A stretch of 58,173 bases of DNA, taken from IMG/VR virus record IMGVR_UViG_3300027741_000073, positions 1 through 58,173 of that record, one strand, 5' to 3'. Origin of the DNA: a virus. Lineage: Duplodnaviria > Caudoviricetes. Under the pieces are notes generated by a model. It saw only the letters and a list, made by a program, of their open reading frames with translations, made no database searches and had not been told where the DNA came from. This document shows positions 11,420-57,747 of this stretch, piece after piece. The position numbers were made by a program, and so were the translations under genes. Position 1 is the first letter of the stretch. Each line of letters begins with the position of its first letter.

Positions 11420-13024
11420 ATGTCTAGATGGATACATGCACCATGCCCTAAATGTTCGTCATCAGACGCATTTAGCTATAAAGAAGATGATGAATTTGGT
11501 TTCTGTTTTAGTTGCCAAAAATCCTCACCTATTAACCCTAACCACAAACCAACTGAATATCACAAAGAGAACTACTCAATGCACACACTAGAGGAAATTA
11601 AAGAATATGACACTCGTGGATTTAAAGAACGTGGTATTACAAAAGCTACAGCAGCTCACTATGGAGTTAAAGTATCGTACGCAGAGGACGGTACTATTGC
11701 TAGCCATTTTTATCCTTACACTAAGGATGGAGTGGTCGTGGCATACAAAGAGAGAAAGTTACCTAAAACATTTGTCATCCATGGCAACTTTAAAGACATC
11801 CAGTTCTTTGGTCAAGCAACGGTTACTGGAGGAAAGAGGATTATTATCTGTGAAGGCGAACTCGATGCCCTCGCTGTGGCGCAAGCGCAGTATGACAAGT
11901 ATCAACGATACTACCCCTCCGTGGCCATTCCCTCGGCATCAGCAACCGCGTTAATCCTTGAACAACGTGAGTGGTTAAGAAACTTTGATGAAGTAGTTCT
12001 TATGTTTGACTCCGATGAAGCAGGACAAAAGGCTACTCAACAAGCGGCTAAGATAATTGGCTACGATAAAGTAAAGGTAGCTAGTCTACCCGAAAAAGAT
12101 CCTTGTGATGTACTAATCAAACAAGGTAGTGCTACACTAATGAGCTGTATCTTTGATGCAAGATCATATAGCCCTTCTGACGTTGTTAAAGGTGAAGCTG
12201 TATGGGAACAATTCAAACTTAAACAGAACACTGTATCATTAGCTTATCCTGAATGTCTCAAGACACTCAATGAGAAGCTCTATGGTATGCGTCTGGGTGA
12301 GATTGTTTTGTTCACATCAGGTACTGGCTCAGGTAAGTCAACTGTTATTAAAGAAATCGTAATGGAAATTCTTGACAAGACTACTGACATGGTTGGTATG
12401 GTCTCTCTTGAAGAGTCTGTTGGTGATACAGCAGAAAAGTTTATTGGTATGCAACTTAAGAAAAATCTTAAGACAGATAATGTTACCGAAGAAGAACAGT
12501 ATACAGCCTTTAAAACTATCTTTGGTGATGAACGCTTAGTGCTGTTAGATCACCAAGGTTCTGTTAGTGATGAATCACTCATAGATAAGTTAGAACACTT
12601 AGCCTTGATGGGCTGTAAGTATATCATCTTAGATCACATTACTATCGCTGTATCCGAAGGTGCTAAAGGTAAAACAGGTAATGAAGCAGTTGACTCCTTC
12701 ATGTCTGACTTACTTAAGATCACTAAGAAACACAACATCTGGCTTGGTGTTGTGTCTCACTTGCGTAAAGGTGAGAAGCCCTTTGAAGAAGGTCATATGC
12801 CTTCTATAGATGACATCAAAGGCTCAGGCTCTATTAAGCAGATTAGCTTTGACATCATTGCTTTTTGTCGCAACATGGTAGCTGACTCGGAAACTCTCCG
12901 TAACACTATCAGACTTCGAGTTTTAAAGTCTCGATTTACTGGTCGCACTGGTGACTGCGGTAATACATCGTATGACACAAACACTGGACGTCTTAAACAA
13001 ACTTCATTTGTAGACTTCGAATAA
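11420..13024 (+). CDS. primase-helicase (T7 gp4-like)
   Basis: Zn finger CPKC...CFSC, TOPRIM EGELD / FDSDEAG, Walker A GTGSGKS, IILDHI, GSGSIKQ, KSRFTG. Confidence 0.95.
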   Translation: MSRWIHAPCPKCSSSDAFSYKEDDEFGFCFSCQKSSPINPNHKPTEYHKENYSMHTLEEIKEYDTRGFKERGITKATAAHYGVKVSYAEDGTIASHFYPYTKDGVVVAYKERKLPKTFVIHGNFKDIQFFGQATVTGGKRIIICEGELDALAVAQAQYDKYQRYYPSVAIPSASATALILEQREWLRNFDEVVLMFDSDEAGQKATQQAAKIIGYDKVKVASLPEKDPCDVLIKQGSATLMSCIFDARSYSPSDVVKGEAVWEQFKLKQNTVSLAYPECLKTLNEKLYGMRLGEIVLFTSGTGSGKSTVIKEIVMEILDKTTDMVGMVSLEESVGDTAEKFIGMQLKKNLKTDNVTEEEQYTAFKTIFGDERLVLLDHQGSVSDESLIDKLEHLALMGCKYIILDHITIAVSEGAKGKTGNEAVDSFMSDLLKITKKHNIWLGVVSHLRKGEKPFEEGHMPSIDDIKGSGSIKQISFDIIAFCRNMVADSETLRNTIRLRVLKSRFTGRTGDCGNTSYDTNTGRLKQTSFVDFE

Positions 13025-15225
13025 TGAATCCACTCCAATATCTTTCTGAACGTGTATCCAAGGTAGTAATTAATTCAGACAAGATCTTTAATGAGGGTGC
13101 GCGTCTCCTTGCACATCACCCTACATGGGAATATGATCTTGAAAGATTTATTAATGAATCATGGGACACACTACTGCGATACTGCATACGTAACAAGAAT
13201 GCTACGCACAGTGCTTCAGTTAAACTCACCTTCGCATCTGATCTTATTGGGAAAAGAATTGCAAGGGCTATTGGCATTGATGAACACAACATCAAATCCA
13301 CCCTCTCTCTGGGAGATATTTTCCTTGAAACGTTCTTACAAGACGGTCTAATAGATATCTTTAGAGAGTATGAAGGTCGTAAAGCCCCTTACATGGTGCG
13401 TATTGTTAATCAAACAGATGACGTTAAGCCTACGCTTATCGGTACTTCATTTGAACCTCTGCTGCCTATTGCTGGGCTATACAGCAACCTTACTAAAGAA
13501 CCATTCATTAAAGGATGGACTAACAGCAAACTATTTCATGAGTATTTAAGTAAACCTTTTATTAAAAGTATGGAAACATTACGCCAACAACCTTGGTCGT
13601 TAAACCTACCTCTGTTAAAGGCTATGGAAGAGAATCATCCTACCGAAATACTTGAACTAGTAGATGCTGATGGTGAGATATACAAATATAATATCCACCA
13701 TGAAAACCTACACTTACCTAAGAAACTTAATCATATAGATGGTACAAAGTTCTTTGGTAAGAAAGACCCTAAGCTACAAAGACTTATAAGTAAATACTTT
13801 GAGTACAGTCAAGTAATAAAGAAAGCACAGCTAGTTGGTAATAGAACTTTCTATCAAGAAGTATCTTGCGACTATCGTGGACGAGTCTACTATGCAGAAT
13901 CATTCCTTGAGTTTCAAGGTAGTGACTTAGCACGTAGTCTCTTTTTATTCGCTAACAAAAAAGAAATGACTGATAAAGGTTTCTTTTGGCTTAAGGTTCA
14001 TACAGCAGCTTGCTATAATAAGTCATTCAACATTAATGATATGCCATCCTATTTCAGTACAGACTACAAGACGTACTTACAAGAAGAAGGTCTTGATACC
14101 ATATCATTAGACAAAATGACTCTTGAAGATAGAGCTGCATGGGTAGATAATAATATGGATAAGATTAGTAACATAGCTAGTCATGATGCTATAGATATGT
14201 CTGCTGAAAAGCCTTTTAGTTTGTTAGCATGTTGCTATGAAATCAAGAACTATATTAGAGCTAAGTCTGAAGGTAACTCCTACATGTCTGGCTTTCCTAT
14301 ACCTATTGATGGTAGTAATAATGGTTGGCAACATCTGGCTGCTATGTCTAAAGATAAACAAGCAGGTACCTTAGTGTCCTTGGTACCTACTCTTATTCAG
14401 AAAGACTTTTACGTAGCTGTTGCTAAAGAACTTATCAAGACTATGCCTGAGTGGTTTGAAGAAAAACAAATGCCTATGAAGCATATCCGTAAGGGTATTG
14501 CTAAACGAGGTTCAATGACTCGAGCATATAGTGCTGGTAAGAAGCGTATAGCTAAAAACATGTACGATGACTGTCATGTAGAAGGTTATACTGTTAAGTA
14601 CAACATAGACCAGGATCAATGTGACGTTCTAGCTGGTAACCTTATTAAGGCTATCAATGAAGTATGTGCTGGTCCACTTAAGACAACTAAATATCTTCAA
14701 AAGATTGCAGAACATGAACTCAACTCAAATAGAAATCACCTTGCTTGGCATACTCCTTCTGGTTTCCCTGTTATTTATAAAGCTTACCTTCAGCACGAAC
14801 GTAAACAAAGAGGTACAATACGGGGTATTCAAGGAAATAAAGATGGTCGTGTCATGCACGTTATTAAAGTGGATGTCCTCAATAAAGAGACTGGCGAACG
14901 AGTACCATGCCGTAGGAGTTATGCTTCGGGTATCAGTCCTAATGTTGTACATTCCTATGATGCTGCTCACATGGCTAATACTGTTGTTGGCTTCAACGGT
15001 AGCTTTGGTGCTGTCCATGATTCGTTTAGTACCCATGCTGATGAGGTGGATTTTCTACAAGAAATAACTAAGATAACCTTTGTTGCTCAATATGATATTG
15101 AAAACTTCTTTAACCTACTACAAGACACTCTTATGGAGAATAAAGAATTATTCACTTTCCCTCAGCCAGTAACAGGAAGCTTAAACCTACAAGAGGTTTA
15201 TAATTCAAAGTATTTCTTTTGCTAA
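13024..15225 (+). CDS. single-subunit T7-type DNA-directed RNA polymerase (733 aa)
   Basis: DYRGRVY, PIDGSNNGWQH, RKGIAKRGSMTRAYS, PNVVHSYDA, AVHDSF. Confidence 0.95.
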   Translation: MNPLQYLSERVSKVVINSDKIFNEGARLLAHHPTWEYDLERFINESWDTLLRYCIRNKNATHSASVKLTFASDLIGKRIARAIGIDEHNIKSTLSLGDIFLETFLQDGLIDIFREYEGRKAPYMVRIVNQTDDVKPTLIGTSFEPLLPIAGLYSNLTKEPFIKGWTNSKLFHEYLSKPFIKSMETLRQQPWSLNLPLLKAMEENHPTEILELVDADGEIYKYNIHHENLHLPKKLNHIDGTKFFGKKDPKLQRLISKYFEYSQVIKKAQLVGNRTFYQEVSCDYRGRVYYAESFLEFQGSDLARSLFLFANKKEMTDKGFFWLKVHTAACYNKSFNINDMPSYFSTDYKTYLQEEGLDTISLDKMTLEDRAAWVDNNMDKISNIASHDAIDMSAEKPFSLLACCYEIKNYIRAKSEGNSYMSGFPIPIDGSNNGWQHLAAMSKDKQAGTLVSLVPTLIQKDFYVAVAKELIKTMPEWFEEKQMPMKHIRKGIAKRGSMTRAYSAGKKRIAKNMYDDCHVEGYTVKYNIDQDQCDVLAGNLIKAINEVCAGPLKTTKYLQKIAEHELNSNRNHLAWHTPSGFPVIYKAYLQHERKQRGTIRGIQGNKDGRVMHVIKVDVLNKETGERVPCRRSYASGISPNVVHSYDAAHMANTVVGFNGSFGAVHDSFSTHADEVDFLQEITKITFVAQYDIENFFNLLQDTLMENKELFTFPQPVTGSLNLQEVYNSKYFFC

Positions 15226-18769: not shown

Positions 18770-18818
18770 AAAAAAAATAACCCCTATTAGGAATAATCCT
18801 AGTAGGGGTTTTTTATTT
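18768..18818. terminator. bidirectional intrinsic terminator between the convergent genome arms
   Basis: A-run, stem AACCCCTATTAGGA / TCCTAGTAGGGGTT (18779-18810), T-run. Confidence 0.9.
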
Positions 18819-21800
18819 ATTTAGCTTTAAGTAATACTTCGGCTAATACTTTAGCCTTCTCAGAGAACTTTCTTTCAAATCCATCATTAATAATTTTAGA
18901 AAGAACATCAGGACTATTTTCAAATCCAAGAACATAGTTACGTTCCCAATTCCAACCTTTATTACCAGAGTCTTCAGAAGATTTATTCTCTTCAATAGCT
19001 CTATCTAACATATTCTTTTCTTTAGTACTCTCAGATTCAACTTTAGGTTCAGGTTTAACCCATTCAACAAAGTTTCTAATAGCAGAACCACCAGCGCCTG
19101 TTGTAGTCATTTGAGCTATACCATGCTTCTTAATAAACTTATTATCAATCATAGCCTTGTATGCTCTATCTACTCCAGCACTGAATCCACTAACAAAAGT
19201 CTTACGGATATTTTCAGCTCCACCCATCTTTTCGTTGTTTTCAGCTAACGTAAACAAAGCTTTAAAAGCATTACGATTAACTGCTAGGTATTTGCTGTTA
19301 GGTTCCCATCCAAGAAGTTTAGCTTCTTTAAGCACTTGCTTAGTGTTAGCTACATACTTCTCCCAACCCTGATTAGCTTTACTTTTGCTGGTACGTTTAT
19401 CAAAGATCTTCTTATAAGAATCACTATTAAGTTTATCTTGTAAGTCATTAAAGTAACCACCAAGAACTTTATATCTACCTGTACTACCTATGTCAATGAA
19501 TTGACGTCCAGCTAAGATGTTATTAAATACATTGTTTTTAGCATTTTCATATGCTTCGTCTATGCGTTTACCAAACTGTTTTATCTCAGGTATAGCTTGT
19601 GGTATAGCAATATTATTATAAGCATTACGATATATATGCAATGATTCAGGACTAGTAATTAACGCATCATGAACTGTCATAATAGGCATTGGTATCTTTA
19701 AGTCTTTGTTAACATAGTTAAGCATTAATTTAAGTAAGTCAGCATCAGTAGATTGAACAGATAATACACCAATTTGTCGAGCTAAACGAGAACCATAAGG
19801 GTTGTTATAAGACTCATGTTTATTCTCTACAGCATTATAATATGATTGAACACCAGCAGTTGCTGAAGGAGTTAACCCACGTCTGCCTTCTCTGACAGCT
19901 AGGTTATTACCACCAACACTATAAATAGTTTCTTTATATCCTGGCATCATCTCTTGCGACTGACCTGAAGAAGAAGGTTGAATCCTATCTTTAGCTTCAT
20001 CTCTAGTAAATCCCATTTCAACAGTGCTGTATTGCATATCGTCTCCACCAACACCCTTATGGGTAGGTACTGTATCTAACATAGCAAACATACGACCATA
20101 TCGAGCAAGGTTCTTTGTGTATGTTGAATCAACTACTTTGCGTAAAGCACCTTCAAGACCTAAGTTTAAATCACGAGCAGCTTGAATAAGTACTGTTCCA
20201 TTCTTAACATCATTCTTATATACACCAGTCTTTTCTAAATGTTTCATAGCAAGTCTATTGTACTTACCATTGTTTAAAAACTCATACATATTTTCAAAGA
20301 ACATACCAGCATCTTTTGAATAAGAGTTTTCCATTAAAGGTTTTTTAATCAAGTCAGATACTACTGAATTACTTTCTTTTCTGACAGCTTCAAAAAAGTT
20401 CTTCCATGCAGTCATTACTTCAGGACGATCTGACAAAATATCATCCATCTGATCTAGCATAGTTGCATAAGTGTAATCACGCATATTACCTAAACTAGGG
20501 TCATATGTACTTAAGCGAAGAGCTGTGTTAGGATTACCAGCAAACAATGATTGAATGAAAATACCATTTTGGTTTCCATCATCAAAGTTCATTGCTGTAA
20601 CTTGTATTGGCATACGTTTCTTTGCTGGATCAATAAATGATTTTTGCGCTTGGAACATATCATCCCACAAGTTTTGGTTAGCAGAAGCTTCACCTCGCTC
20701 CATACCTGCTAATAGATTAACAATCTCAGGACTAGCCTTAGTTGGATCTTCTAACCATTCATTATACATCTTACCTATATTAGCTAAGTAAGCACCAATC
20801 TCAGGTGTGTATGCCATGATATTATCTGCTGGAGCTTTACCAGCAACCTTAGTTTTAATACCTTCAGGTGCAGTATAGTTATAGTAGTTATTAACCGCCA
20901 TTTCCATTAAGCCTAATGCTGATCTTTGATATGGTGTTAGCGCCATTAATGCTTGGTGTTGTTCAACTCCTGGCTTAGTCTTATTAAAAACTCTATTAGC
21001 TAATGCTTTTAGGTTATCAATTTCTTTTGTGTCAAACAAGTCAGACACTTGTATAATAGATTTAACACCAAAGTTAAGCATCTCTCTTATAGCGCTCTTA
21101 GAACTAATAATATCGGTATCAGGATTACGTCTATCAAAACGGTGATTAGCAGTTGCATGAGCATAAGATGTATACAACAAATGACCTAGATCTTTTTGTG
21201 CTAAACCTAAATCATACTTCAACCTAGCTAATCTGTTCTGCATCTCTTCACGAGCATGTTCATCTTGTTTAGCTTCATATTGAAGTTGTTTGTTGCTATC
21301 ATTAGCATTATAATCTTCGTCTTTACCTACAGCGTTCTTTAATGAATTAAAAGCAGTCTCACCCATCTTATGACGATCAGCAAAGATACTTTTGCTAAAG
21401 CCTGACTCATCATCAAACTTAGCAGTTACATCTTCAAGCTGTTTCATAAGTGAGTTAACCGACTTAGGATTAAACATCTCAGCTATACGACCTAAAATAT
21501 TCTTAGCGTAAAATGCACCGTTATGTTTAGTTCCTGGAGCCATCTTAGAGTTCTTAGTAATCTGGTTACCCTGATTAATGAACTCACCTAATGGAACACG
21601 AGAAGCCATATGCCTACGTTCAGAGCCAGTAACAGCTGCAGCTAAATCTTCAAGAGCTTTACTTTGATCCTTTAGAGCTTTTGAAGGGGCAAACATAGGC
21701 ATACCATCTTTATTCTGATACTCTAATAGATGCCCATTACCATACTTACCAGCAAAAGCTGCTTGAGCTAATTTGTATGATGTTCCATCTGGAAGATTCA

Positions 21801-22725
21801 AACCACGATTAGCTAAGGCAGTATCAAATGCAGCAGCAGTTGCGTTAATAATATTTATCTCATTAGCTTCATCATTGTTCTCTACATTAGACCCGTCAGG
21901 ATTAATGCCAGTACTAGGCGAAGACATTTGAGTTACAGCACGAGCAAAACTAAGAGCTATATACGAAGGAACAATCTTAAGGGCGTTAGATAAACTTTCA
22001 CCCTCAAGACCAGCATCTTGTAGTATCTCTGTACCAGCCGCAATACCTGTATTGTATAATTCACCTGTATCAGGATTTATTTTAGGTACTTTAACTGACT
22101 CAGAGTTGTTAGAGAATAGTTCATTCCTAATACTTTGAGTGGCATACTCAAGAGGAGTAGCCGCTGTTATAGACTTTTGTTCTATCTTCTCAGGAGACAG
22201 GTTAGTAAACCCAGCTTCATTAGATTTTTCAAACAAAGACCTAGCAGTATCAGCAGCACTATCTCCAAACTCATCTAAGTTTGCATTAGAAAAATCCCTT
22301 AGACCACTCAATTGACGTTGTTGTTCTTTTTGATAATCATCTAAAGGAACTTCTCTAGATAATGGATTGCCACTTTCATCTCTAGCTACATTACCTTGTT
22401 CATCTAATACAGGCTCATAAGGTCTGTTAAGAAGGTATGGATTACCTGTAGCGCCTACTAATGAACTGTTGTCAGTTACATCAGGTTGCACGTGTACCCC
22501 TGCCATACCAGCAAATTTAGGCTTAGGGATTTCCATTGTAGCTGCAACAATAGGAGGGACATTAGCAATGTTTTGTAAAGGATTAGCTCCTGACTCAGGA
22601 GAGACAGGCAAAGTTGGTTCTGGATTTATTTGCCGTTGAATTTCTTCAGCTGAATTTACACCATTAGGTGCTAATGTTCTAAGTCCAGATCCAGGACCTT
22701 GGGGGTTTTGTATAAAACGTGCCAT
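18817..22725 (-). CDS. putative virion-encapsidated single-subunit RNA polymerase (1302 aa)
   Basis: FDDGNQNG (motif A), KKPLMENSYS (motif B), SVQSTDA, TVHDAL (motif C) in T7 order; no Cys; located among ejection protein genes. Confidence 0.75.
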   Translation of the reverse strand: MARFIQNPQGPGSGLRTLAPNGVNSAEEIQRQINPEPTLPVSPESGANPLQNIANVPPIVAATMEIPKPKFAGMAGVHVQPDVTDNSSLVGATGNPYLLNRPYEPVLDEQGNVARDESGNPLSREVPLDDYQKEQQRQLSGLRDFSNANLDEFGDSAADTARSLFEKSNEAGFTNLSPEKIEQKSITAATPLEYATQSIRNELFSNNSESVKVPKINPDTGELYNTGIAAGTEILQDAGLEGESLSNALKIVPSYIALSFARAVTQMSSPSTGINPDGSNVENNDEANEINIINATAAAFDTALANRGLNLPDGTSYKLAQAAFAGKYGNGHLLEYQNKDGMPMFAPSKALKDQSKALEDLAAAVTGSERRHMASRVPLGEFINQGNQITKNSKMAPGTKHNGAFYAKNILGRIAEMFNPKSVNSLMKQLEDVTAKFDDESGFSKSIFADRHKMGETAFNSLKNAVGKDEDYNANDSNKQLQYEAKQDEHAREEMQNRLARLKYDLGLAQKDLGHLLYTSYAHATANHRFDRRNPDTDIISSKSAIREMLNFGVKSIIQVSDLFDTKEIDNLKALANRVFNKTKPGVEQHQALMALTPYQRSALGLMEMAVNNYYNYTAPEGIKTKVAGKAPADNIMAYTPEIGAYLANIGKMYNEWLEDPTKASPEIVNLLAGMERGEASANQNLWDDMFQAQKSFIDPAKKRMPIQVTAMNFDDGNQNGIFIQSLFAGNPNTALRLSTYDPSLGNMRDYTYATMLDQMDDILSDRPEVMTAWKNFFEAVRKESNSVVSDLIKKPLMENSYSKDAGMFFENMYEFLNNGKYNRLAMKHLEKTGVYKNDVKNGTVLIQAARDLNLGLEGALRKVVDSTYTKNLARYGRMFAMLDTVPTHKGVGGDDMQYSTVEMGFTRDEAKDRIQPSSSGQSQEMMPGYKETIYSVGGNNLAVREGRRGLTPSATAGVQSYYNAVENKHESYNNPYGSRLARQIGVLSVQSTDADLLKLMLNYVNKDLKIPMPIMTVHDALITSPESLHIYRNAYNNIAIPQAIPEIKQFGKRIDEAYENAKNNVFNNILAGRQFIDIGSTGRYKVLGGYFNDLQDKLNSDSYKKIFDKRTSKSKANQGWEKYVANTKQVLKEAKLLGWEPNSKYLAVNRNAFKALFTLAENNEKMGGAENIRKTFVSGFSAGVDRAYKAMIDNKFIKKHGIAQMTTTGAGGSAIRNFVEWVKPEPKVESESTKEKNMLDRAIEENKSSEDSGNKGWNWERNYVLGFENSPDVLSKIINDGFERKFSEKAKVLAEVLLKAK

Positions 22726-47010: not shown

Positions 47011-47032
47011 ATATTATTTCCTTTGTGTCCGT

Positions 47033-47645: not shown

Positions 47646-47660
47646 ATTCTTTGTGTATTA

Positions 47661-47689
47661 AGAGAACTTACTCCTAAGAGTAAGACTCT
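47661..47689. other. intergenic hairpin after the portal gene
   Basis: AGAG-AA-CTTACTC-CTAA-GAGTAAG-A-CTCT. Confidence 0.55.
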
Positions 47690-47694
47690 GTTTG

Positions 47695-49959
47695 TTAAGC
47701 TAATTGTTTAGCTGTTTCACTCATTTCAGCAGCTGGGCCGTTTACTTGCGGCATTAGCGCTCCACCTTGTGGGCGAGAAGCGTCTGCATGAATGTCACCA
47801 TCGATAAATCCTTTAGCGAGTGACAAGAGTTGTTTAATGTCTGGTTGTGGAGGAGGTTGTACACCTTCTTTAGCGGCTTGAATATAAATCTTGCCCCACT
47901 CTTGATATGATTTATCAAGAGCAACCATAAGTTGTTTTGTGTTGTCTTGCATTGCATTCTTAGTCTGTACGTTAGTAAGATCTAAGGTTGCTTGGCGCTG
48001 GCCTAGATCAAGCATTTTAGCTTGTTCTTCCATTTGTTTCTGTTTCTCTTGAGCTTGAATTTGTGCATTGCGATCAGCCAATGCCTTCTCTTTAAACTTA
48101 GGATCAGTGTAATCAACAAGGAAGTCTAATGGGTCTAAGTCTAGAGCCTCAAGAGTCTTACATGCGATATGTACTGCGGCTTCAGGATTAACTGCGCCAC
48201 CCGCTCCAGCAGACTGTAGAGCAGGGATTAACTGTTGACCAACCAGAGCCATCTTCTTAACAATGTTCTGATTTGAGTTCTCACCCACATCAACATCAAT
48301 GTATAACAAAAGGTTTGAAGGTAAAGTTCCTGGGTCAATAGACTTAAAGATATCGTTCTGATCGTAGTAGTGCATGGTTTTACCACGCATTTTGTCACGA
48401 AGAGTTTTATAGATACCCTCAATTAAACGTTTAAAGCCTGTTTCAGCAAACCTACGTGCCATGTATTGAATACGCACTTGAGCTGCAGACATAGCTCTGC
48501 TCATCTTCTCTTCACTGTTACCTGATACATAAAGAGTATCGTTAAGACCTTGAGCCGCTTTAGACATACCTGTTGCTTGCTCTTTATGAGTCTGCAATAT
48601 CTCAAGTAAAGGCACTGTACCTGTACTGATAGTGTCAGGAGCTAAAGGAGACACCGCATTCATTGGTGAACCGTTAGTAGCAATAATCTGTTTAGGCTTC
48701 ATGTTTTGAAGCGCACTAAAGTCTACTACATTAGGGTCAGCTAGTTTAGGAGAATAGTTCGTGAGATATACGTTCTCAACAAAGCCACGTAGAATAGCTG
48801 TAGTAGCTAATGTAGATGGACGAATCATGTCAGCAACTGATAAACCAAAGAATTCGTGAGGTACTTCAAAAGGACAAAGAGTCGCTAAGGGTACACAGTC
48901 ACAGTCTTCTTCTAAGAGAATAGTTGAGCCAGCAATAATGAAGTGTTTCATTTCAGCCAAACCATCTCCGTCTCTATCTACACGTAACCAACACTCGATA
49001 ACTGTTATCTGTCTGTTAGCTTCTGACGGGAATAACTCTCGTGAATTCCCCCCTAGCCAGTACTCTTCACCGACAAGACGCTTACGAGCAGCTTGTTCTT
49101 CTGTATACTTGGTTGCCCAATCATACGAACCATCGCCAATCGTATCCCAGTCAATGTTCTCTGCTATATCAGGGAAAAACTTTCTGATTTCAGATCGAGT
49201 CATATCAATCTGGATACCCACAAATGAAGCGTCATCTAGAGTATGTGCATCTCTAGTTATACGAAAACATTCTGGGTGTACATTCTTAATGTTAATACGG
49301 GTCTTATTATGCTTTCTACGTAGACGTACATTCTCATAGATTGTCTTGTAAAAGGAGTTACCCTGTTCATCTGTGTCTAACTCTTGTTTATATTTGAGTT
49401 CACCTAACACTTCAATGTCTTCTTCAGACAAAAGAATATCTAAGTTAGCTTGTTCAATCTCATCATACTCTTCAAAAGTATAGTCAAAGTCTTCAATAAA
49501 CTCCCACCGAATAATACTATTCTTCCATAGGAGAGCTGACTTAACCCAAGTATTTAAGATTTCCCACCCGTTATTCTGTTTAAATATAGAGTAGTTAACT
49601 AGGTCTGAGGCTACTTTTGCCTCATGAAAATTTTTAGGGGAGGATCCAGCGGGGATAAATCGGGCTAGCCTGTTGTTGTTAAACATCAATTCAGCTAAGA
49701 TAGCTGTGTAACCCTCAATAGCTTCTACAGTGTCTGAGGAAACAATCTGAGAAACACCCTGTGGAACTAAGTGGAACATAGGCATCATACCATACTCATA
49801 AGTAGCCTTCTGACGTTCACGAGCTAAGTCGCTACTATTCAAAAAGTCACCTACAGAGTTAGTAATACCTTGTTCAATCATTGCCAGTAGTTCATTATCG
49901 CCTACTGGCTCTTTATATCTATCAGGCTGGAAGTGCGGGATAGGTTGTTTATCGCTCAT
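47695..49959 (-). CDS. portal protein (P22-like)
   Basis: S.IVS.D..E.IE, ECW.R.D.DGDG.AE, P...PHEFFG.S.AD, E..TG.S...QG; start placed at MSDKQ. Confidence 0.88.
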   Translation of the reverse strand: MSDKQPIPHFQPDRYKEPVGDNELLAMIEQGITNSVGDFLNSSDLARERQKATYEYGMMPMFHLVPQGVSQIVSSDTVEAIEGYTAILAELMFNNNRLARFIPAGSSPKNFHEAKVASDLVNYSIFKQNNGWEILNTWVKSALLWKNSIIRWEFIEDFDYTFEEYDEIEQANLDILLSEEDIEVLGELKYKQELDTDEQGNSFYKTIYENVRLRRKHNKTRINIKNVHPECFRITRDAHTLDDASFVGIQIDMTRSEIRKFFPDIAENIDWDTIGDGSYDWATKYTEEQAARKRLVGEEYWLGGNSRELFPSEANRQITVIECWLRVDRDGDGLAEMKHFIIAGSTILLEEDCDCVPLATLCPFEVPHEFFGLSVADMIRPSTLATTAILRGFVENVYLTNYSPKLADPNVVDFSALQNMKPKQIIATNGSPMNAVSPLAPDTISTGTVPLLEILQTHKEQATGMSKAAQGLNDTLYVSGNSEEKMSRAMSAAQVRIQYMARRFAETGFKRLIEGIYKTLRDKMRGKTMHYYDQNDIFKSIDPGTLPSNLLLYIDVDVGENSNQNIVKKMALVGQQLIPALQSAGAGGAVNPEAAVHIACKTLEALDLDPLDFLVDYTDPKFKEKALADRNAQIQAQEKQKQMEEQAKMLDLGQRQATLDLTNVQTKNAMQDNTKQLMVALDKSYQEWGKIYIQAAKEGVQPPPQPDIKQLLSLAKGFIDGDIHADASRPQGGALMPQVNGPAAEMSETAKQLA

Positions 49960-51417: not shown

Positions 51418-53061
51418 TTAAATCCATGTGGTTTCTGATTGTTGAAAGTTCCCTATCTTTTGTGTAAAAGGAACATTATTTGTTGTTAGCCTATCTCCGT
51501 GTGTCCTTATTACTTCTAGGGCTATAGCTAAAGCAATAACTGTATCATCATTATGACCTACAATAGCATTAGTACGACCTGAGTCATCCGCTATATAATT
51601 CATTAATTCCCCTATGACTATCCTTGAGGGGATCCATATTTCTTCTTGTTCAATGGCATTCTTTAAAAATCCAATAATGGCTGGCTTAGAGGACGTTGTT
51701 GTTCTCCAACCTATACGGCTACCTTCTTCTTTAGAGACGTTAGCCATCTTAGTCTGATAGTACATATTAACATAACCCATTTGGATTAGTCTATTTAATG
51801 TAGCTATACCCATCGAGTTTGACTCTACAGCTAGGAGAGCATTGTTGTAATAGCGACCGAGATAAAACAAAAGATCACCAAACTTAGAGGGATCAATATG
51901 ATTGTTTCTGTATACTGCACAAATTTCTCTATTTTTATTTATAACAATAGCTGCAGAGTGGTCTTTACCTACACCCAGACTTACGTCAGCACCTATCGCA
52001 AAGGCATCCTCAAAGGTAGGATACTTAAAGATCTCTATAGAACCATTCCTCACATCCTCCATCATTTGACTCTCAAAGTTAAATTCTCTTTGAGCTAGGA
52101 TGGGTTGAGGAATTAAAGCTGAGAGCTTCTCTATGTTAAATACATTAGACCCTGAAACAATAAATGCTTCTTCAGGAGTCGCGGGGTACTCTTGTTTAAA
52201 CTTATCTAGACCACCCTCGGCAATCTTAAGCCTTCTCCAATACAGTTGATCATCATCCAACTTAAATCGGGTAACAAGAACTTCTTCTTCATCCGTTCTT
52301 TCAAAACTAGGAGGAGCCTTACGCCTATACTCAGACATAAGAAACCAAGGAACAAAGATAGGGATATATTCATTAGAACCATCTACTGCTCCCTTCCAAA
52401 GTCTGTGAAAACTATTTCCTACACCGTTAGCTGTACTCTCGAGAATAACCTCGGTGCCATCTGCCTGAGAGATTCCTTGAAAGAGTCCAGCAAGAATCTT
52501 TTCATCATGTAACCAAAAAGCTACTTCTGACAAATGAGCTATTGTTGGAGTAATACCCCTACCCGCTTCTGGAGAACCAGCCGTATACAGCCTGTATCCT
52601 GAGTCGTTATGCTCAAACATAATCTCTTTTGCGTTAGACTTCTTAAGTTCAGGTCTGAACTGCTCAGGCATATTCGCAATAATATTTCTTGACATTGTGA
52701 AGAGAGCGTCTGAGGTAGCACTATCATGCGCCATAACTACAGACTTATTGTACTTGTTAAAGTAACTCTTCCAGAATACCCTTGAAGCAGAATACGTAGA
52801 TAAACCCATTTGACGGGCTTTAAGAATGATAACCCGGACTTTACCAGTCTCTTTTAACTGAGCCTCAATAGCATCATTCACAATATGTTGGGCTTCATTG
52901 AAAACAAAAGGTTTAAACCCCTCTCGGGAGTCTTTGGGAAGAATTAAGATCTGTTCTCGAGCAAATGTCTCAAAGTCACTTGAGTATTCTTTTTCTTTTT
53001 CTCTACGCTTAAGTTCTCTTAACGCTTCCAGCCTCTGTGCGTTACTAATTTTTGTGTCCAT
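51418..53061 (-). CDS. terL: terminase large subunit
   Basis: ILKARQMGLST, HLSEVAFW, ESTANG, GADVSLG, VESN, HNDDTVIA. Confidence 0.93.
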   Translation of the reverse strand: MDTKISNAQRLEALRELKRREKEKEYSSDFETFAREQILILPKDSREGFKPFVFNEAQHIVNDAIEAQLKETGKVRVIILKARQMGLSTYSASRVFWKSYFNKYNKSVVMAHDSATSDALFTMSRNIIANMPEQFRPELKKSNAKEIMFEHNDSGYRLYTAGSPEAGRGITPTIAHLSEVAFWLHDEKILAGLFQGISQADGTEVILESTANGVGNSFHRLWKGAVDGSNEYIPIFVPWFLMSEYRRKAPPSFERTDEEEVLVTRFKLDDDQLYWRRLKIAEGGLDKFKQEYPATPEEAFIVSGSNVFNIEKLSALIPQPILAQREFNFESQMMEDVRNGSIEIFKYPTFEDAFAIGADVSLGVGKDHSAAIVINKNREICAVYRNNHIDPSKFGDLLFYLGRYYNNALLAVESNSMGIATLNRLIQMGYVNMYYQTKMANVSKEEGSRIGWRTTTSSKPAIIGFLKNAIEQEEIWIPSRIVIGELMNYIADDSGRTNAIVGHNDDTVIALAIALEVIRTHGDRLTTNNVPFTQKIGNFQQSETTWI

Positions 53062-53083
53062 TATTTTCTCTTAAATGTTTTTT

Positions 53084-53100
53084 CCTAATAGGAACCGACT
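53084..53100 (-). promoter_or_regulatory. putative phage RNAP promoter (AGTCGGTTCCTATTAGG) at the head of the late arm
   Basis: 14/16 match to the consensus, about 22 nt upstream of terL. Confidence 0.6.
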
Positions 53101-53347
53101 AGTAATACTATGTTTAATATTTTAAAATGTAATATTTTGGATTATGTCTGGGGGAAAGTCTGGTAGGAAAAGTCTATGGGTAAGGTTTCTTTGTGTGTGA
53201 AAAAGAATCATAGGTTTGCTGATTACCCCCTGTTGTCGTTCGTGACCCCCCTGTGTCGTGTTCGTTGCCTGTGTGGTGTCGCTCCTGTCAGCTGCGCTGT
53301 GGCGCTGGTGCTGCTGGCTTCCTTTGTTTGCGCTTTTGGAGTCTGCT

Positions 53348-53572
53348 ATGTCTGTTCCTTCTTCTCTTGCTAACTCTGTTGGTTACGAGGTCTTTGCTGT
53401 CTCTGCCTCTGGTGCTGAGGTGTTTGTTGCTGCCTTTGTTGATTCGTCTCTTGCTGAGGCGTATGCTGTCTGGCGCAATGCCTCTGATCCTGCTAACGAC
53501 TACCGTGTTTGGGCTGACTATTGCCCTGTGTCTGACCCCTACTCTGAGTATGTTGCACTCATTACTGGTTAA
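53348..53572 (+). CDS. first early protein (74 aa, acidic, A-poor coding sequence)
   Basis: GGAG RBS; ATG at 53348; third codon positions almost never A. Confidence 0.7.
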   Translation: MSVPSSLANSVGYEVFAVSASGAEVFVAAFVDSSLAEAYAVWRNASDPANDYRVWADYCPVSDPYSEYVALITG

Positions 53573-53598
53573 GAACCTTGCCTGAAGGCTTTGGCCTT

Positions 53599-53621
53599 TG
53601 GACAGCGCTCTTGCTGTGTTG
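53599..53621 (+). promoter_or_regulatory. 23-nt early repeat, copy 1 (TGGACAGCGCTCTTGCTGTGTTG)
   Basis: Identical to 53840-53862; lies just before an RBS. Confidence 0.7.
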
Positions 53622-53641
53622 CATGTACTAAGGAGATTATC

Positions 53642-53806
53642 ATGCGTTCTGTTCTCTTGTTTGTTTGTTTACGTCGTGGTTACATGTTGTCTCACTCACC
53701 TGTGTGTGGGTTCTGGATGACTACGTTTCACGGTTGTACTGCTTACGCTAATGACTTGTCATTACGTGACCTGTTCTTAGTAGCTACTCAACCTAAAAAT
53801 TATTAA
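53642..53806 (+). CDS. early hypothetical protein (54 aa)
   Basis: AAGGAG RBS. Confidence 0.6.
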   Translation: MRSVLLFVCLRRGYMLSHSPVCGFWMTTFHGCTAYANDLSLRDLFLVATQPKNY

Positions 53807-53839
53807 GTTTTTTGTCTGTTGGGGTCTATTAGACCTCAA

Positions 53840-53862
53840 TGGACAGCGCTCTTGCTGTGTTG
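53840..53862 (+). promoter_or_regulatory. 23-nt early repeat, copy 2
   Basis: Identical to 53599-53621. Confidence 0.7.
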
Positions 53863-53883
53863 TTCATATCTAAAGGGAATCAA

Positions 53884-54078
53884 ATGAACATAATCAAACA
53901 CTTGATCTTCGGATCAATATGGTCATTCTCACTAGTGTACACACTTGGTGAGATTGAGGGTGGCAACTGTGACTTGATACTAGGAGTAGCAATATTCCTA
54001 TGTGGAGTCATGGCTTGTTCACAGTTAGCAATAGCATTATTTGAAGCAGAGGAAATCATATGCAACAAGTTAGGCTAG
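53884..54078 (+). CDS. early two-TM membrane protein
   Basis: AAGGGA RBS; two hydrophobic helices. Confidence 0.6.
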   Translation: MNIIKHLIFGSIWSFSLVYTLGEIEGGNCDLILGVAIFLCGVMACSQLAIALFEAEEIICNKLG

Positions 54079-54212
54079 AAGACTTCAATGAAGTCCAAAG
54101 AGAGTTTTTCGAGGAACGTGCTGGTATCAAAGAGTACGAAGCTAATATGCCGAGAGTATTAGCCGAAGAACAAGCGTTTGAAGAGACCTTAGCGTTCTTC
54201 AATCTAAAGTAA
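54060..54212 (+). CDS. small early protein (50 aa)
   Basis: Read by hand; FEERAGIKEY...R..AE..A pattern; GAGGA RBS. Confidence 0.6.
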   Translation: MQQVRLEDFNEVQREFFEERAGIKEYEANMPRVLAEEQAFEETLAFFNLK

Positions 54213-54298
54213 TCATTGCTCTTCTCGGGTAGATAACGGAGAGACCACTTGGGGTATGTACCAAGACATTCATCAACGCCATTTCTAAGGAGATACAC

Positions 54299-54625
54299 AT
54301 GGCTAAATTCGTTCCTTCCTTTAAAGTTGAGCCACGTGCTCAAGTCTCATTCTCTACGAACAATCCATTTGGTCGTGATCGTGAGTCTGTTCCTGTTATC
54401 ATTGAGGTGCTTGCATACAATGCTGACATTCGTACTATTGAAGCCACTGGTTCTGATGGTCGTAAGCGTCAATGTCGTATTGATCGTTTCAGTGATGACA
54501 AACTCTTGAAGCAGTTAACATCTGACCTCCAAGCTGCCTATAACACAGGTACTGAGGTAGTCTTTGTTGCTGCTGGTGGTAACGATCCTAACGTATGGTT
54601 CTATAATGTTATCATTGTAGGCTAA
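54299..54625 (+). CDS. early hypothetical protein
   Basis: TAAGGAG RBS; strongly biased codons. Confidence 0.75.
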   Translation: MAKFVPSFKVEPRAQVSFSTNNPFGRDRESVPVIIEVLAYNADIRTIEATGSDGRKRQCRIDRFSDDKLLKQLTSDLQAAYNTGTEVVFVAAGGNDPNVWFYNVIIVG

Positions 54626-54712
54626 GTTAACCTTACCTGTAGACCTTTTTAACGAGAGGTCTATGGGTATGGCAATCCCGCTATACACAACAGTCATATT
54701 CAAGGAGAAACA

Positions 54713-54964
54713 ATGACTAGATACCTGCTATTAAACCCTCTGACACCAGAGTCCTTTAGCTTATCTACCTTTGACGAGATAGAAGAAGCACTAGAGGAAT
54801 TCGGGTGTAAAATGATTCTATCATTAAACACAGAAACACAAGTCATAGGCTTTGCATATGCCACAAGCAAGCAAGCCTTAGAGAACCTCTGCACAACAGT
54901 CTCTCTAGACGGTGTAATGGTAGAATACACAGCCACATACGACCAAGTAGTGAGGCTAGGATGA
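54713..54964 (+). CDS. early hypothetical protein
   Basis: AAGGAG RBS. Confidence 0.7.
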   Translation: MTRYLLLNPLTPESFSLSTFDEIEEALEEFGCKMILSLNTETQVIGFAYATSKQALENLCTTVSLDGVMVEYTATYDQVVRLG

Positions 54965-55209
54965 TACTAAACAAACACAGAACACAGTTTAACTTAGAGA
55001 TGACACAAGATGAGCTTAAAAGACTCATATCTACCATAGAAGGCTATCAAGAGATAGTCCTAAACTCGGATATTGTAGACGAATTAACAGAAACAGTAAC
55101 ATTCTTAAGGAATTCTCTTTATGAACTCACCCGATTTAAACGCTATGCAGAAGCAGAACACAAGTATCTGGCAGAAGAGGAAGCAAAGGCAGATGCAAGG
55201 ATCACTTAA
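54961..55209 (+). CDS. early hypothetical protein
   Basis: ATGA coupling. Confidence 0.7.
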   Translation: MILNKHRTQFNLEMTQDELKRLISTIEGYQEIVLNSDIVDELTETVTFLRNSLYELTRFKRYAEAEHKYLAEEEAKADARIT

Positions 55210-56510: not shown

Positions 56511-56530
56511 AGTCGGTACCTAATAGGGAG
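56511..56530 (+). promoter_or_regulatory. putative phage RNAP promoter (AGTCGGTACCTAATAGGGAG)
   Basis: Perfect consensus followed by a T7-like GGGAG; intergenic. Confidence 0.7.
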
Positions 56531-57149: not shown

Positions 57150-57680
57150 ATGGCGACACAAGACAACAATTCGCGTAACGAAATCATCAAAGATGTTGAG
57201 TTACACTGGTGTAAACTAGACAAACCTGTTTCACCCTTCGGTACTGAACAGTACGAGATCAGCATCCAAGTTCCTAAAAAGCGTTCTTCTGAATTAGCTG
57301 TTTATGGTAACCCAAAGCCAGTTAAAGACCGTGATGGTAAAGATACTGGTCGTGTATCTATCAATCTTAAGAAGAAAGCTCTTAAGAAAGATGGTACAGA
57401 TGCCGCTAAAGTACGTGTAGTAAATACCAAGAAAGACTCTATCGATCCAAAGTCTATAGGCAATGGTTCTAAAGGTAACGTTATGGTCTACCTTCAAGAC
57501 TACGCTATCAAAGCTCCTAACGGTAAAGTGACTAAGGAAGGTACTTCAGTAATGTTAGTGGCTGTTCAAGTTACTAACCTTATTAAGTATGAGCCTAAGT
57601 CAGATAACTTCACAGACTTTGACTATGATGGTCAACCAACAACAGCTACCAACGCTGATGATGTTGAAGCCATATTCTAA
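57150..57680 (+). CDS. single-stranded DNA-binding protein (T7 gp2.5-like)
   Basis: W.KL..P, IGNGSKGNV, L.AVQV..L..Y; acidic tail ending in Phe. Confidence 0.8.
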   Translation: MATQDNNSRNEIIKDVELHWCKLDKPVSPFGTEQYEISIQVPKKRSSELAVYGNPKPVKDRDGKDTGRVSINLKKKALKKDGTDAAKVRVVNTKKDSIDPKSIGNGSKGNVMVYLQDYAIKAPNGKVTKEGTSVMLVAVQVTNLIKYEPKSDNFTDFDYDGQPTTATNADDVEAIF

Positions 57681-57697
57681 AACCTAGTTGTAAGTAT

Positions 57698-57722
57698 AAC
57701 CCTCTTAATTGAGGGTTTTTTA
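57698..57722 (+). terminator. intrinsic terminator after the SSB gene
   Basis: AACCCTC-TTAATT-GAGGGTT followed by a T-run. Confidence 0.8.
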
Positions 57723-57747
57723 TTCATTTTCTTTTTTAAGGTATATC

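What the first reader, a model, noticed from the sequence alone, without database searches (positions are those of the whole stretch)
53231..53800. Almost adenine-free + strand at the probable leading end of the genome
Seen: 53231-53460 has 11 A in 230 nt (hand count), and 53246-53347 has 2 A in 102 nt, one of them in the GGAG RBS. The rest of the early + strand is A-rich, and A content recovers gradually by ~53.8 kb. The first gene (53348-53572) has no Lys, Gln or His, uses only GAG for Glu, and has one A-ending sense codon. The tract starts where the late and early arms diverge. Inference: this is the first-injected, first-transcribed DNA, under selection against A. Possible reasons: (a) an A-free strand cannot contain a strict palindrome with A/T, which removes most Type II restriction sites; (b) vRNAP transcription that needs little ATP; (c) an mRNA resistant to A-targeting toxins such as MazF (ACA), ToxN or CmdT; (d) a template strand without TT photodimer sites.
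Basis: partly seen in the sequence, partly recalled or inferred. Interest (0 to 1): 0.85.

Follow-up and report, generated by a model that had tools for sequence, protein, structure and literature searches.

The report
Adenine-free head of phage early genes
The first few hundred bases of this phage's early gene arm, including real genes, are written almost without the letter A, a rule its whole phage family keeps, most likely so that the first DNA to enter a cell offers host restriction enzymes nothing to cut.

Summary
53231-53460 holds 11 A in 230 nt; the genome mean is 71 (sd 11) and the next lowest window has 34. It is not an artefact. All 68 related viral contigs with enough flank carry an A-poor tract of 89-985 nt at the same place, and so does the cultured roseophage CRP-7.

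The cause is selection on nucleotides. The same protein family occurs with 10 A in 354 nt inside the tract and 99 A in 327 nt outside it (BLASTP E 1e-18). Synonymous A3 falls from about 0.45 to about 0.06. Start codons become GTG/TTG and the ribosome site GGGG.

The tract ends stepwise at a small hairpin element. Palindromes still possible on an A-free strand are 3-10 fold depleted. phiKMV's mapped left end is also A-poor.

Best reading (confidence 0.4): a restriction-proof first-entering cassette. The genome ends are not mapped, so this is unproven. RNA-level and template-strand rivals remain open.

A late-operon 1302-aa protein folds as a T7-like RNA polymerase, a candidate virion enzyme.

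This scan noted the same rule before on other DNA (e1-3420922, e1-3505284). My literature searches found no description of it.

The parts
51418..53061 (-). Large terminase gene, the first gene of the late (- strand) arm, divergent from the tract
   Evidence: ORF. 65.7% nt identity to the CRP-7 terminase large subunit. 278 relatives found.
53084..53100 (.). 17-nt motif present three times in the genome; candidate phage-polymerase promoter pointing to the terminase gene
   Evidence: 3 matches with up to 3 mismatches (also 35999-36015 and 56511-56527) against 0.11 expected. Its function is inferred. Noted earlier as e1-6282885.
53155..53175 (+). Two AAAGTCT direct repeats upstream of the junction element. 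Relatives have 2-3 similar G-rich repeats, or tandem arrays, at this place.
   Evidence: 53155, 53169; for relatives.
53189..53210 (+). Single-copy conserved junction element (TTTGTGTGTG ... AAGAATCA), immediately before the A-free tract. It is either the unique early promoter or a genome-end/packaging element.
   Evidence: Conserved in most relatives. No second copy in the genome with up to 5 substitutions. Coordinates.
53226..53476 (+). Core adenine-poor tract (12 A in 251 nt) by maximal-scoring segment. It opens with two C-run boxes at 53226-53230 and 53246-53251.
   Evidence: The boxes are conserved in relatives.
53226..53347 (+). Untranslated A-free DNA before gene 1. A occurs only at 53245, 53290 and 53340. 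It ends with the ribosome site GGAG at 53338-53341.
   Evidence: The three open frames here arise because an A-free strand cannot hold a stop codon.
53348..53572 (+). Gene 1: 74-aa acidic protein (5 D, 4 E, 2 R, 0 K), 12% A. No Pfam or PHROG family.
   Evidence: Relatives of the protein sit further downstream in other genomes with 18-22% A.
53600..53621 (+). Hairpin element, copy 1: stem 53602-53606 / 53613-53617, loop GCTCTT
   Evidence: two exact copies against 0 expected. Stems covary among relatives.
53642..53806 (+). Gene 2: 54-aa protein, 19% A, with homologues in the tract of relatives
   Evidence: family 17.
53841..53862 (+). Hairpin element, copy 2. It marks the return to normal A content.
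53884..54078 (+). Gene 3: small membrane protein, the first conserved early gene with normal composition (30% A for the ORF as called, 53839-54078)
   Evidence: family 1 (45 loci).
54299..54625 (+). Early gene (108 aa, 24% A). In other genomes a homologue sits inside the tract and is written with about 3% A.
   Evidence: E 6e-10 to L015:2251-2604:-.
18817..22725 (-). 1302-aa late-operon protein. Residues 560-1150 fold as a single-subunit (T7/N4-type) RNA polymerase. Candidate injected virion polymerase for the early genes.
   Evidence: Motifs A, B and C in order and invariant or nearly so in 36 sequences. AlphaFold pLDDT 88.6. Foldseek top hits are all single-subunit RNA polymerases.
13024..15225 (+). 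T7-like RNA polymerase (733 aa) at the end of the replication block
   Evidence: PHROG 414 E 4e-97; Pfam RNA_pol E 5e-58.

Best explanation
The tract is a discrete, family-wide 'pre-early cassette' at the head of the early arm of a CRP-7-type podovirus. In order it holds a single-copy junction element, about 120 nt of untranslated A-free DNA with two C-run boxes, and zero to three small accessory genes re-coded so that the sense strand has almost no A. It ends at a small hairpin element in front of the first conserved early gene.

Shown:
- The composition and its conservation.
- That it is imposed on whatever gene occupies the slot, at silent and replacement sites alike.
- That the few symmetric sites an A-free strand could still hold are also depleted.

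Inferred:
- This is the DNA that enters the cell first and lies exposed before any phage protein exists.
- A strand without A cannot carry any target that needs adenine, or an A:T pair, on both strands. That covers every Type I restriction site and every A/T-containing palindromic Type II site, whatever the host enzyme's specificity.
- The cassette is therefore restriction-proof in any host, and its genes (probably anti-defence) are expressed before the rest of the genome comes in.
For: 1. Conservation. 68 of 68 related loci with at least 600 nt of flank have the tract. 28 of these 68 have at most 1 A in their best 230 nt. CRP-7 has 0-2 A per 200 nt over about 700 nt.
2. Position rules composition. 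Genes before the first conserved gene: n=58, mean A 0.148. Genes after it: n=350, mean A 0.354.
3. Homologues in both states. 10 A in 354 nt against 99 A in 327 nt, BLASTP E 1e-18.
4. Codons. A3 in four-fold families is 0.01-0.16 against 0.15-0.52. AGR share of Arg is 0.09 against 0.50. Lys is 1.8% against 7.5%.
5. Starts. In 51 loci the first start codon is ATG 24, GTG 18, TTG 9, and the ribosome site reads GGGG in 14.
6. Palindromes per kb. In the tract: 16.5 four-mers and 2.6 six-mers. Downstream: 52 and 13. Observed/expected after composition-matched shuffling is 0.49 and 0.43 in the tract against 0.76 and 0.74 downstream.
7. GC-only words. GGCC, CCGG and CGCG are at 0.16-0.18 of the dinucleotide expectation, while the non-palindromic GCCG and CGGC are at 0.76-0.79.
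8. Interrupted palindromes. CCTGG 0.10, CCGGG 0.09, GGGCC 0.04.
9. phiKMV. Its terminal repeat is annotated at 1-414 and its putative host promoters at 897-1272. It has 4-11 A per 100 nt over 1-800 and 20-34 after that. It also has 26 four-mer palindromes against 51.5 (sd 6.8) expected.
10. Literature. PMC12455610 (abstract, sections 18 and 19 read): in marine Autographiviridae only Type I motifs in the first-injected region cause restriction, and its discussion cites the T5 first-step-transfer EcoRI case.
Against: - The physical ends and the order of entry are not known for this family (one search gave contigs only; contig ends do not cluster at the junction).
- GCGC (136 observed, 110.6 expected) and GCTGC (189 observed, 95.5 expected) are not avoided.
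- A/T-containing four-mer palindromes made by the residual A are not depleted overall (264 observed, about 282 expected, summed).
- Palindromes are depleted genome-wide in this family, so the tract is only moderately more extreme.
- Purging nearly every A, including start codons and the ribosome site, is stricter than site avoidance obviously needs.
- Targets that need adenine on one strand only (Type III, BREX) are not excluded.
- No anti-restriction gene was recognised in the slot: 0 families for 10 proteins in PHROGs and none in Pfam for genes 1-3.
- The stepwise end at a hairpin fits a transcription unit at least as well.
- T7 and SP6 show only a mild dip, and SIO1, N4 and DSS3phi2 show none.
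Confidence: 0.4

Rival explanations
1. RNA-level protection. The tract is the first early transcript, and a message without A cannot be cut or modified by host RNases, toxins or RNA-modifying defences whose targets contain A. Recalled examples are MazF-type ACA cutters, ToxN and CmdT at GA. The first anti-host proteins can then still be made.
For: - The depletion is on the sense strand in every relative.
- It starts within about 15 nt of a unique conserved promoter-like element.
- It ends in a step at a hairpin element.
- It extends to start codons and the ribosome site.
- Every single A seems to cost, as expected for a one-base target.
Against: - No transcription start is known. The RNA contigs laid covered only 54125-54977 and part of the terminase gene, not the tract.
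- In phiKMV the A-poor stretch lies upstream of the annotated putative host promoters.
- If the hairpins are the promoters, the first 60-110 nt of the tract are not transcribed at all.
- No A-specific defence is known to act at time zero. The examples named are recalled, not tested.
Confidence: 0.22
2. Template-strand 'boot sector'. The strand read by the polymerase carries no T. This could be because an injected virion polymerase reads it as single-stranded DNA while host SSB, which prefers T-rich DNA (recalled), coats the T-rich partner strand. Or it could be because thymidine in virion DNA is modified or replaced and would block reading of the first genes.
For: - A late-operon protein has a T7/N4-type RNA polymerase fold with invariant motif A, B and C residues. 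Its motif C region is kept in CRP-7 gp33 (E 3e-8).
- Small hairpins with a constant loop and covarying stems lie in the first 1 kb: 46 of 223 loop motifs have at least 4 flanking pairs, against 4 of 223 in the control.
- An earlier scan note (e1-6202940, not checked here) reports the mirror case in 2-aminoadenine phages.
Against: - N4 and the N4-like roseophage DSS3phi2 have normal A at their left ends.
- No thymidine-modification gene was found. The screen gave only a dCMP deaminase, a nucleoside 2-deoxyribosyltransferase-like protein, DUF3310 and ribonucleotide reductase, and only the larger ORFs were screened.
- Virion packaging of the polymerase is not shown.
Confidence: 0.15
3. Terminal repeat tuned for annealing. 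The tract is a direct terminal repeat. Giving each strand a three-letter alphabet limits self-pairing of the single strands that the T7-type exonuclease exposes, and so helps concatemer formation.
For: - phiKMV's annotated 414-bp repeat is A-poor.
- The phage encodes a T7-type exonuclease and a gp2.5-like annealing SSB.
- The tract has abrupt borders.
Against: - The tract holds genes and varies from 89 to 985 nt.
- In phiKMV the A-poor zone runs about 400 nt past the repeat.
- Predicted folding of the tract is no weaker than that of its own shuffles: z from -2.82 to +1.36 in 16 loci (RNA parameters).
- No repeat copy or depth doubling could be seen.
Confidence: 0.08
4. Damage or supply arguments. 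A T-free template has no TT/TC photodimer sites that would stall the first transcription in sunlit water, or the first transcript needs no ATP.
For: The hosts are surface-water bacteria: CRP-7 came from coastal seawater and the best-holding runs are labelled freshwater metagenomes. The depletion is strand-specific.
Against: - Protecting 0.2-1.7% of the genome gives little benefit.
- Other aquatic phages checked (SIO1, DSS3phi2) lack the tract.
- The other three NTPs depend on ATP (general knowledge).
- Nothing here tests either idea.
Confidence: 0.05
5. Local mutation bias rather than selection.
For: None specific. Strand asymmetries can arise from replication or transcription.
Against: - A is replaced by T, G and C alike: the tract is C 0.26, G 0.29, T 0.41, against about 0.20, 0.19 and 0.31 in the genome.
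- The borders are sharp.
- Functional A is retained in stop codons and in some start codons.
- The magnitude (AT skew near -0.8 to -1) is far beyond known mutational skews.
Confidence: 0.03

Closest known systems
Restriction-site avoidance in the first-injected DNA: Murciavirus phages of Marinomonas (PMC12455610) and the T5 first-step-transfer region without EcoRI sites (as cited in that paper's discussion)
   Same: The region sits at the head of the early arm, is variable and full of small accessory genes, and is poorer in symmetric sites than the rest of the genome.
   Different: Those cases concern single motifs. Here a whole base is removed from one strand, proteins are re-coded to allow it, and injection order is not shown.
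Left end of Pseudomonas phage phiKMV (AJ505558): 414-bp terminal repeat plus untranslated DNA up to the early promoters
   Same: The top strand is A-poor (4-11 A per 100 nt over 1-800) and palindrome-poor, at a genome end annotated in the record. The T7-type RNA polymerase gene also lies late in the early/middle arm (for phiKMV this is recalled).
   Different: The phiKMV stretch is non-coding and milder. I found no remark on it in print, but I did not read the phiKMV genome paper.
Phage N4 early system: injected virion RNA polymerase reading small DNA-hairpin promoters (PMC4496689, search listing and abstract start only; details recalled)
   Same: A second, highly divergent T7-type polymerase is encoded among virion genes, and small hairpins with covarying stems lie before the first early genes.
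   Different: N4 has no A depletion. The protein here is 1302 aa, not about 3500 (recalled). Packaging and promoter use are untested.
ACA-less, MazF-resistant messages (recalled, not searched)
   Same: A message is freed of a nuclease's target by synonymous recoding.
   Different: Those lack a trinucleotide. Here every A goes, including in untranslated DNA.
Adenine-less signal-sequence coding regions of vertebrate secretory mRNAs (PMC2100149, PMC3635865; search listing and abstract starts only)
   Same: The 5' coding region is depleted of A beyond what the encoded hydrophobic peptide needs.
   Different: That is a eukaryotic nuclear-export signal, which has no counterpart in a phage.

Membership tests
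Restriction-avoiding first-injected region | Lies in the DNA that enters the cell first | not testable with these tools
   Public runs are held as contigs only. Contig ends do not cluster at the junction.
Restriction-avoiding first-injected region | Fewer restriction-type (symmetric) sites than composition predicts, and fewer than the rest of the genome | tested here: met
   The exceptions are GCGC and GCTGC.
Restriction-avoiding first-injected region | Encodes or precedes an anti-restriction function | tested here: inconclusive
   No Pfam or PHROG family for the slot genes. Gene 1 is small and acidic, which is only suggestive.
Direct terminal repeat of a T7-type phage | The same sequence at both physical ends | not testable with these tools
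   The record is linear without end repeats. No raw reads are available.
Single-subunit (T7/N4-type) RNA polymerase, for the 1302-aa protein | Polymerase fold | tested here: met
   pLDDT 88.6. All listed Foldseek matches are mitochondrial, T7 or N4 RNA polymerases; 17 matches have E <= 1e-3 and the best is 1.2e-6; TM 0.28-0.42.
Single-subunit (T7/N4-type) RNA polymerase, for the 1302-aa protein | Motif A and C aspartates, motif B Lys and Tyr, in order and conserved | tested here: met
   D716 (and G717), H1019 and D1020 are invariant. K794 and Y802 are kept in at least 90% of 36 sequences. Assigning them to motifs rests on recalled T7 motifs.
N4-type virion polymerase system | Polymerase packaged in the virion and injected | not testable with these tools
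   Only its place in the late operon speaks for it.
N4-type virion polymerase system | Hairpin promoters before early genes | tested here: inconclusive
   The hairpins are real and their stems covary, but no start sites are known, and the hairpins occur only in the first 1 kb.
Modified-thymidine phage | Genes for replacing or modifying thymidine | tested here: not met
   None appeared among the ORFs screened. The small ORFs were not all screened.

The most novel reading that the evidence does not exclude
An 'adenine-free boot sector' is a general entry strategy of mobile DNA. The first-entering, first-read segment is written in three letters. No defence that needs adenine on both strands (all Type I systems) or in the message can touch it. 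In this family it is read by an injected polymerase from hairpin promoters on a T-free template. The same rule would then explain the A-free early units that this scan's unchecked notes report in cyanophages, temperate phages, T7-like ends and plasmid genes.
Probability: 0.2. Interest if true: 0.9.

Novelty: new variant of a known kind. Interest (0 to 1): 0.75.

Why it matters
If the leading-end reading holds, this is a universal way for a phage to escape restriction that does not depend on the enzyme's specificity. It works through base composition and is strong enough to rewrite proteins into a roughly ten-letter amino-acid alphabet.

Practical consequences:
- It gives a sequence-only marker for the first-entering end and for the slot where new anti-defence genes are likely to sit.
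- It predicts gene-calling errors. CRP-7 gp72 is annotated on the stop-free opposite strand.
- It offers natural examples of functional proteins encoded without adenine.
- It is directly testable in a cultured system (CRP-7 and its roseobacter host).

Tried and rejected
- Read-level terminus and transcript mapping. All 24 runs found are held as contigs. Laying 4 of them gave no molecule ends. The listed pieces leave 53219-53290 (X1) and 53207-53386 (X2) uncovered, but the tool warns that holes prove nothing, and 15 records were not shown. RNA contigs covered only parts of 52124-52772 and 54125-54977. I draw no conclusion from this.
- Contig ends as a proxy for genome ends. The 12 loci with under 600 nt of flank end at scattered places: inside the terminase gene, in a tandem array, or inside the tract.
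- Selection for unstructured RNA. Tract folding z-scores against dinucleotide shuffles ran from -2.82 to +1.36 in 16 of 62 loci, similar to downstream DNA. The script stopped with a KeyError before the window row and the means.
- Chi-like or other enriched words. The top enriched k-mers are conserved leader positions, each found about once per locus, such as GTGGCGCT in 27 of 62 loci. They do not form an array.
- Sigma-70 promoter scan of 52900-54400. There was 1 weak hit on the wrong strand, against 1.9 expected.
- Sequence searches for the large virion proteins gave nothing: PHROGs and Pfam, PDB phmmer, phmmer against the phage's own polymerase, and tblastn of residues 560-1150 against 50,697 phage records. 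Only the fold search gave the polymerase result.
- Literature. 'adenine-free' did not occur in any of the 15 papers listed out of 734. Of 146 papers holding adenine-poor/-less/-depleted terms, none of the 30 listed concerns phages. The CRP-7 paper has no occurrence of adenine, skew, terminal repeat, termini or circular. PMC12629253 proved unrelated, because CRP-701 and similar names matched the search term. Supplements were not opened.
- Sequence look-up in the scan's own notes found nothing.
Full report
WHAT THE WINDOW IS

The window is a whole viral record of 58,173 bases, classed as linear with an estimated completeness of 94%.

Gene layout:
- Plus-strand genes run from 53348 through the record end to 18518.
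- Minus-strand genes run from 53061 back to 18817, beginning with the large terminase.

The plus arm encodes the following:
- DNA polymerase I
- a T7-type exonuclease
- a primase-helicase
- a 733-aa T7-like RNA polymerase
- ribonucleotide reductase
- a gp2.5-like SSB
- a dCMP deaminase
- a nucleoside 2-deoxyribosyltransferase-like protein

The only cultured relative found by DNA search is roseophage CRP-7, with 65.7% identity over part of the terminase gene.

THE OBSERVATION

53231-53460 has 11 A in 230 nt, and 53246-53347 has 2 A in 102 nt. Over all 230-nt windows the mean is 71.3 A (sd 10.9). The minimum is 10, at 53226, and the next separate minima are 34, 39 and 41. No other base shows anything comparable. 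The binomial probability is 2.7e-23.

Gene 1 (53348-53572) has no Lys, Gln or His. It uses only GAG for Glu and has one A-ending sense codon. It is 12% A, and gene 2 is 19% A. All other plus-strand genes are 24-49% A.

An A-free strand cannot contain a stop codon. This explains the three overlapping open frames over 53176-53585.

CONSERVATION

A terminase-based search found 278 relatives, of which 80 loci were kept.
- 12 loci had under 600 nt of flank beyond the terminase start and were not evaluated.
- All other 68 have an A-poor tract at the same place. In 28 of them the best 230-nt window holds at most 1 A.

Tract length runs from 89 to 985 nt, with a median of 406 over 69 rows including the window. 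Composition is steady at about C 0.26, G 0.29, T 0.41.

In 62 non-identical loci, A falls from 0.26 to 0.02 at the tract start and returns to about 0.30 by 1,100 nt. The sharpness of the onset is partly by construction, because the tract start was used as the anchor.

Locus by locus the end is a step, from 0-4 A per 50 nt to 8-18 within one or two bins. The step is often in a bin that holds a hairpin loop motif.

CRP-7 has 16, 1, 2 and 10 A in its last four 200-nt bins, close to the record end. Neither its genome paper nor my searches mention this.

SELECTION, NOT ARTEFACT OR MUTATION

The early region is a mosaic. Different relatives have different genes first, yet whichever gene sits before the first conserved early gene (a small membrane protein) is A-poor.
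- Genes before it: n=58, mean A 0.148.
- Genes after it: n=350, mean A 0.354.
- The ORF set required an ATG and a ribosome-site-like motif. It includes some spurious stop-free ORFs inside the tract.

One protein family occurs in both states:
- L015:2251-2604:- has 10 A in 354 nt.
- L032:1275-1601:- has 99 A in 327 nt.
- They align at 39% identity, E 1e-18, with compositional adjustment.

The window's own normal-composition gene 54299-54625 also belongs to this family (E 6e-10).

Codon and signal changes inside the tract:
- A at third positions of four-fold families falls to 0.01-0.16, from 0.15-0.52.
- AGR falls from 0.50 to 0.09 of Arg codons.
- Lys falls from 7.5% to 1.8%.
- T takes most third positions.
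- In 51 loci where a ribosome site and start could be placed, the first gene starts with ATG in 24, GTG in 18 and TTG in 9. The ribosome site reads GGGG instead of GGAG in 14.
- A survives mainly in stop codons, some start codons and a few Asp/Tyr codons.

A is replaced by all three other bases and the borders are sharp. Neither fits a local mutation bias.

ANATOMY IN THE WINDOW

The elements in order, after the terminase start at 53061:
- a 17-nt motif that occurs three times in the genome
- two AAAGTCT repeats
- a single-copy conserved junction element at 53189-53210
- from 53226, the A-free DNA, opening with two C-run boxes
- the ribosome site at 53338-53341
- gene 1
- a 22-nt hairpin element at 53600-53621
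- gene 2
- an identical hairpin element at 53841-53862
- the first normal gene

Across relatives, 46 of 223 occurrences of the loop motif have at least four flanking base pairs, against 4 of 223 in a control. The stems differ (AGAGC/GCTCT, ACAGC/GCTGT, GGGC/GCCC, GGAC/GTCC), and all but one of the 46 lie within 1 kb of the tract start.

None of the 10 early and tract-slot proteins screened matches a PHROG family, and genes 1-3 match no Pfam family.

WHY IT EXISTS: DNA-LEVEL EVIDENCE

An A-free strand cannot hold any palindrome with an A:T pair, nor any site that needs adenine on both strands. I asked whether the symmetric sites it can still hold are avoided as well. They are.

| Measure | Tract | Comparison |
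|---|---|---|
| GGCC, CCGG, CGCG (fraction of dinucleotide expectation) | 0.18, 0.16, 0.18 | non-palindromic GCCG 0.76, CGGC 0.79 |
| Interrupted palindromes CCTGG, CCGGG, CGGCG, GGGCC | 0.10, 0.09, 0.09, 0.04 | 12 such words together 0.60; all other A-free 5-mers 1.02 |
| Four-mer palindromes per kb | 16.5 | 52 downstream; 57 between terminase and tract |
| Six-mer palindromes per kb | 2.6 | 13 downstream; 20 between terminase and tract |
| Observed/expected after composition-matched shuffling (4-mers, 6-mers) | 0.49, 0.43 | 0.76, 0.74 downstream; 0.81, 1.10 between terminase and tract |

Caveats:
- GCGC and GCTGC are not avoided.
- Palindromes are depleted genome-wide in this family.
- Palindromes made by the residual A are not depleted overall.

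Two outside facts fit a leading-end reading.
- In phiKMV the first 800 nt hold 4-11 A per 100, against 20-34 afterwards, and are palindrome-poor. The record annotates the terminal repeat at 1-414 and putative host promoters at 897-1272. A T7-type phage therefore keeps the same rule at its annotated left end, in DNA that the annotation places upstream of the promoters.
- PMC12455610 (abstract, sections 18 and 19 read) shows experimentally that only Type I motifs in the first-injected region make marine Autographiviridae sensitive to restriction. It argues that selection is concentrated on that region. [quoted passage not shown]

T7 and SP6 show only mild dips, and SIO1, N4 and DSS3phi2 show none.

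WHO READS THE EARLY GENES

The 1302-aa protein at the end of the late operon carries, in order, motif-A-like FDDGNQNG, motif-B-like K...YS and motif-C-like VHDA. These residues are invariant or nearly so in 36 homologues of 29-67% identity.

Residues 560-1150 fold with pLDDT 88.6. Every top Foldseek match is a single-subunit RNA polymerase: mitochondrial, T7, N4 RNAPII or the N4 virion polymerase. The best E is 1.2e-6 and TM is 0.28-0.42. CRP-7 gp33 shares the motif C region (E 3e-8).

Plain sequence searches had found nothing.

It also makes the hairpins candidate promoters. Packaging and promoter use remain inferred. N4's normal composition shows that such a system does not by itself require an A-free template.

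WEIGHING

For an RNA or template explanation:
- The strand specificity.
- The start next to a unique element.
- The stepwise end at a hairpin.
- The loss even of ATG and GGAG.

For a DNA-level, leading-end, restriction-avoidance explanation:
- The phiKMV parallel.
- The depletion of the remaining symmetric sites.
- The normal palindrome content of the DNA just before the tract.
- The published leading-region effect.

I put the restriction-avoidance reading first at 0.4. The RNA reading is at 0.22, the template/virion-polymerase/modified-T reading at 0.15, the terminal-repeat-annealing reading at 0.08, and the rest lower.

What I could not do:
- Map termini or transcript starts.

RELATION TO EARLIER NOTES

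Unchecked notes of this scan describe the same rule in this family (e1-3420922, e1-3505284). They also describe A-poor ends in T7-like and phiKMV-type phages (e1-154848, e1-119118, e1-185760) and a mirror case in 2-aminoadenine phages (e1-6202940).

I re-derived the family result independently and checked phiKMV myself. The other notes were not tested.

Noticed in passing
L082 8980-9675 (CRP-7 record 57271-57966): CRP-7 gp72 is annotated on the strand opposite to the A-free tract. That strand has no T and so no stop codons, which makes the call look spurious. A sense-strand ORF at L082 9315-9701 has a ribosome site and a C-terminus like the tract genes of relatives.
   Followed up: partly
window 18817-22725 (-): A late-operon 1302-aa protein contains a T7/N4-type RNA polymerase domain that was invisible to Pfam, PHROGs and PDB sequence searches. 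It is a candidate virion polymerase and is conserved in 55 database proteins.
   Followed up: yes
window 53600-53621 and 53841-53862; relatives within 1 kb of the tract start: Small hairpins with a constant loop (GCTCTT or GTCTT) and covarying 4-6 bp stems mark the end of the A-free tract. They could be a promoter, a processing site or an injection stop.
   Followed up: partly
L078 and L077, upstream of the junction element: A tandem array of a roughly 15-nt unit (AGAGAGTGTTTTAAT-like) replaces the two or three G-rich repeats seen in the window. One contig ends inside the array.
   Followed up: no
window 46000-48000: A strong T over A excess on the + strand (AT skew -0.26), meaning very A-rich coding strands of - strand late genes. 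These are the next lowest A windows after the tract.
   Followed up: no
window 3782-4225, 4556-4951, 7165-7623: A nucleoside 2-deoxyribosyltransferase-like protein, DUF3310 and a dCMP deaminase, with no thymidylate synthase found among the ORFs screened. This may bear on nucleotide pools or DNA modification.
   Followed up: no
L084 1-800 (phiKMV AJ505558): The terminal repeat and the following untranslated DNA of phiKMV are A-poor and palindrome-poor on the top strand.
   Followed up: partly
window 56511-56527 and 35999-36015: Two further copies of the 17-nt motif that precedes the terminase gene. These are probably phage-polymerase promoters.
   Followed up: partly
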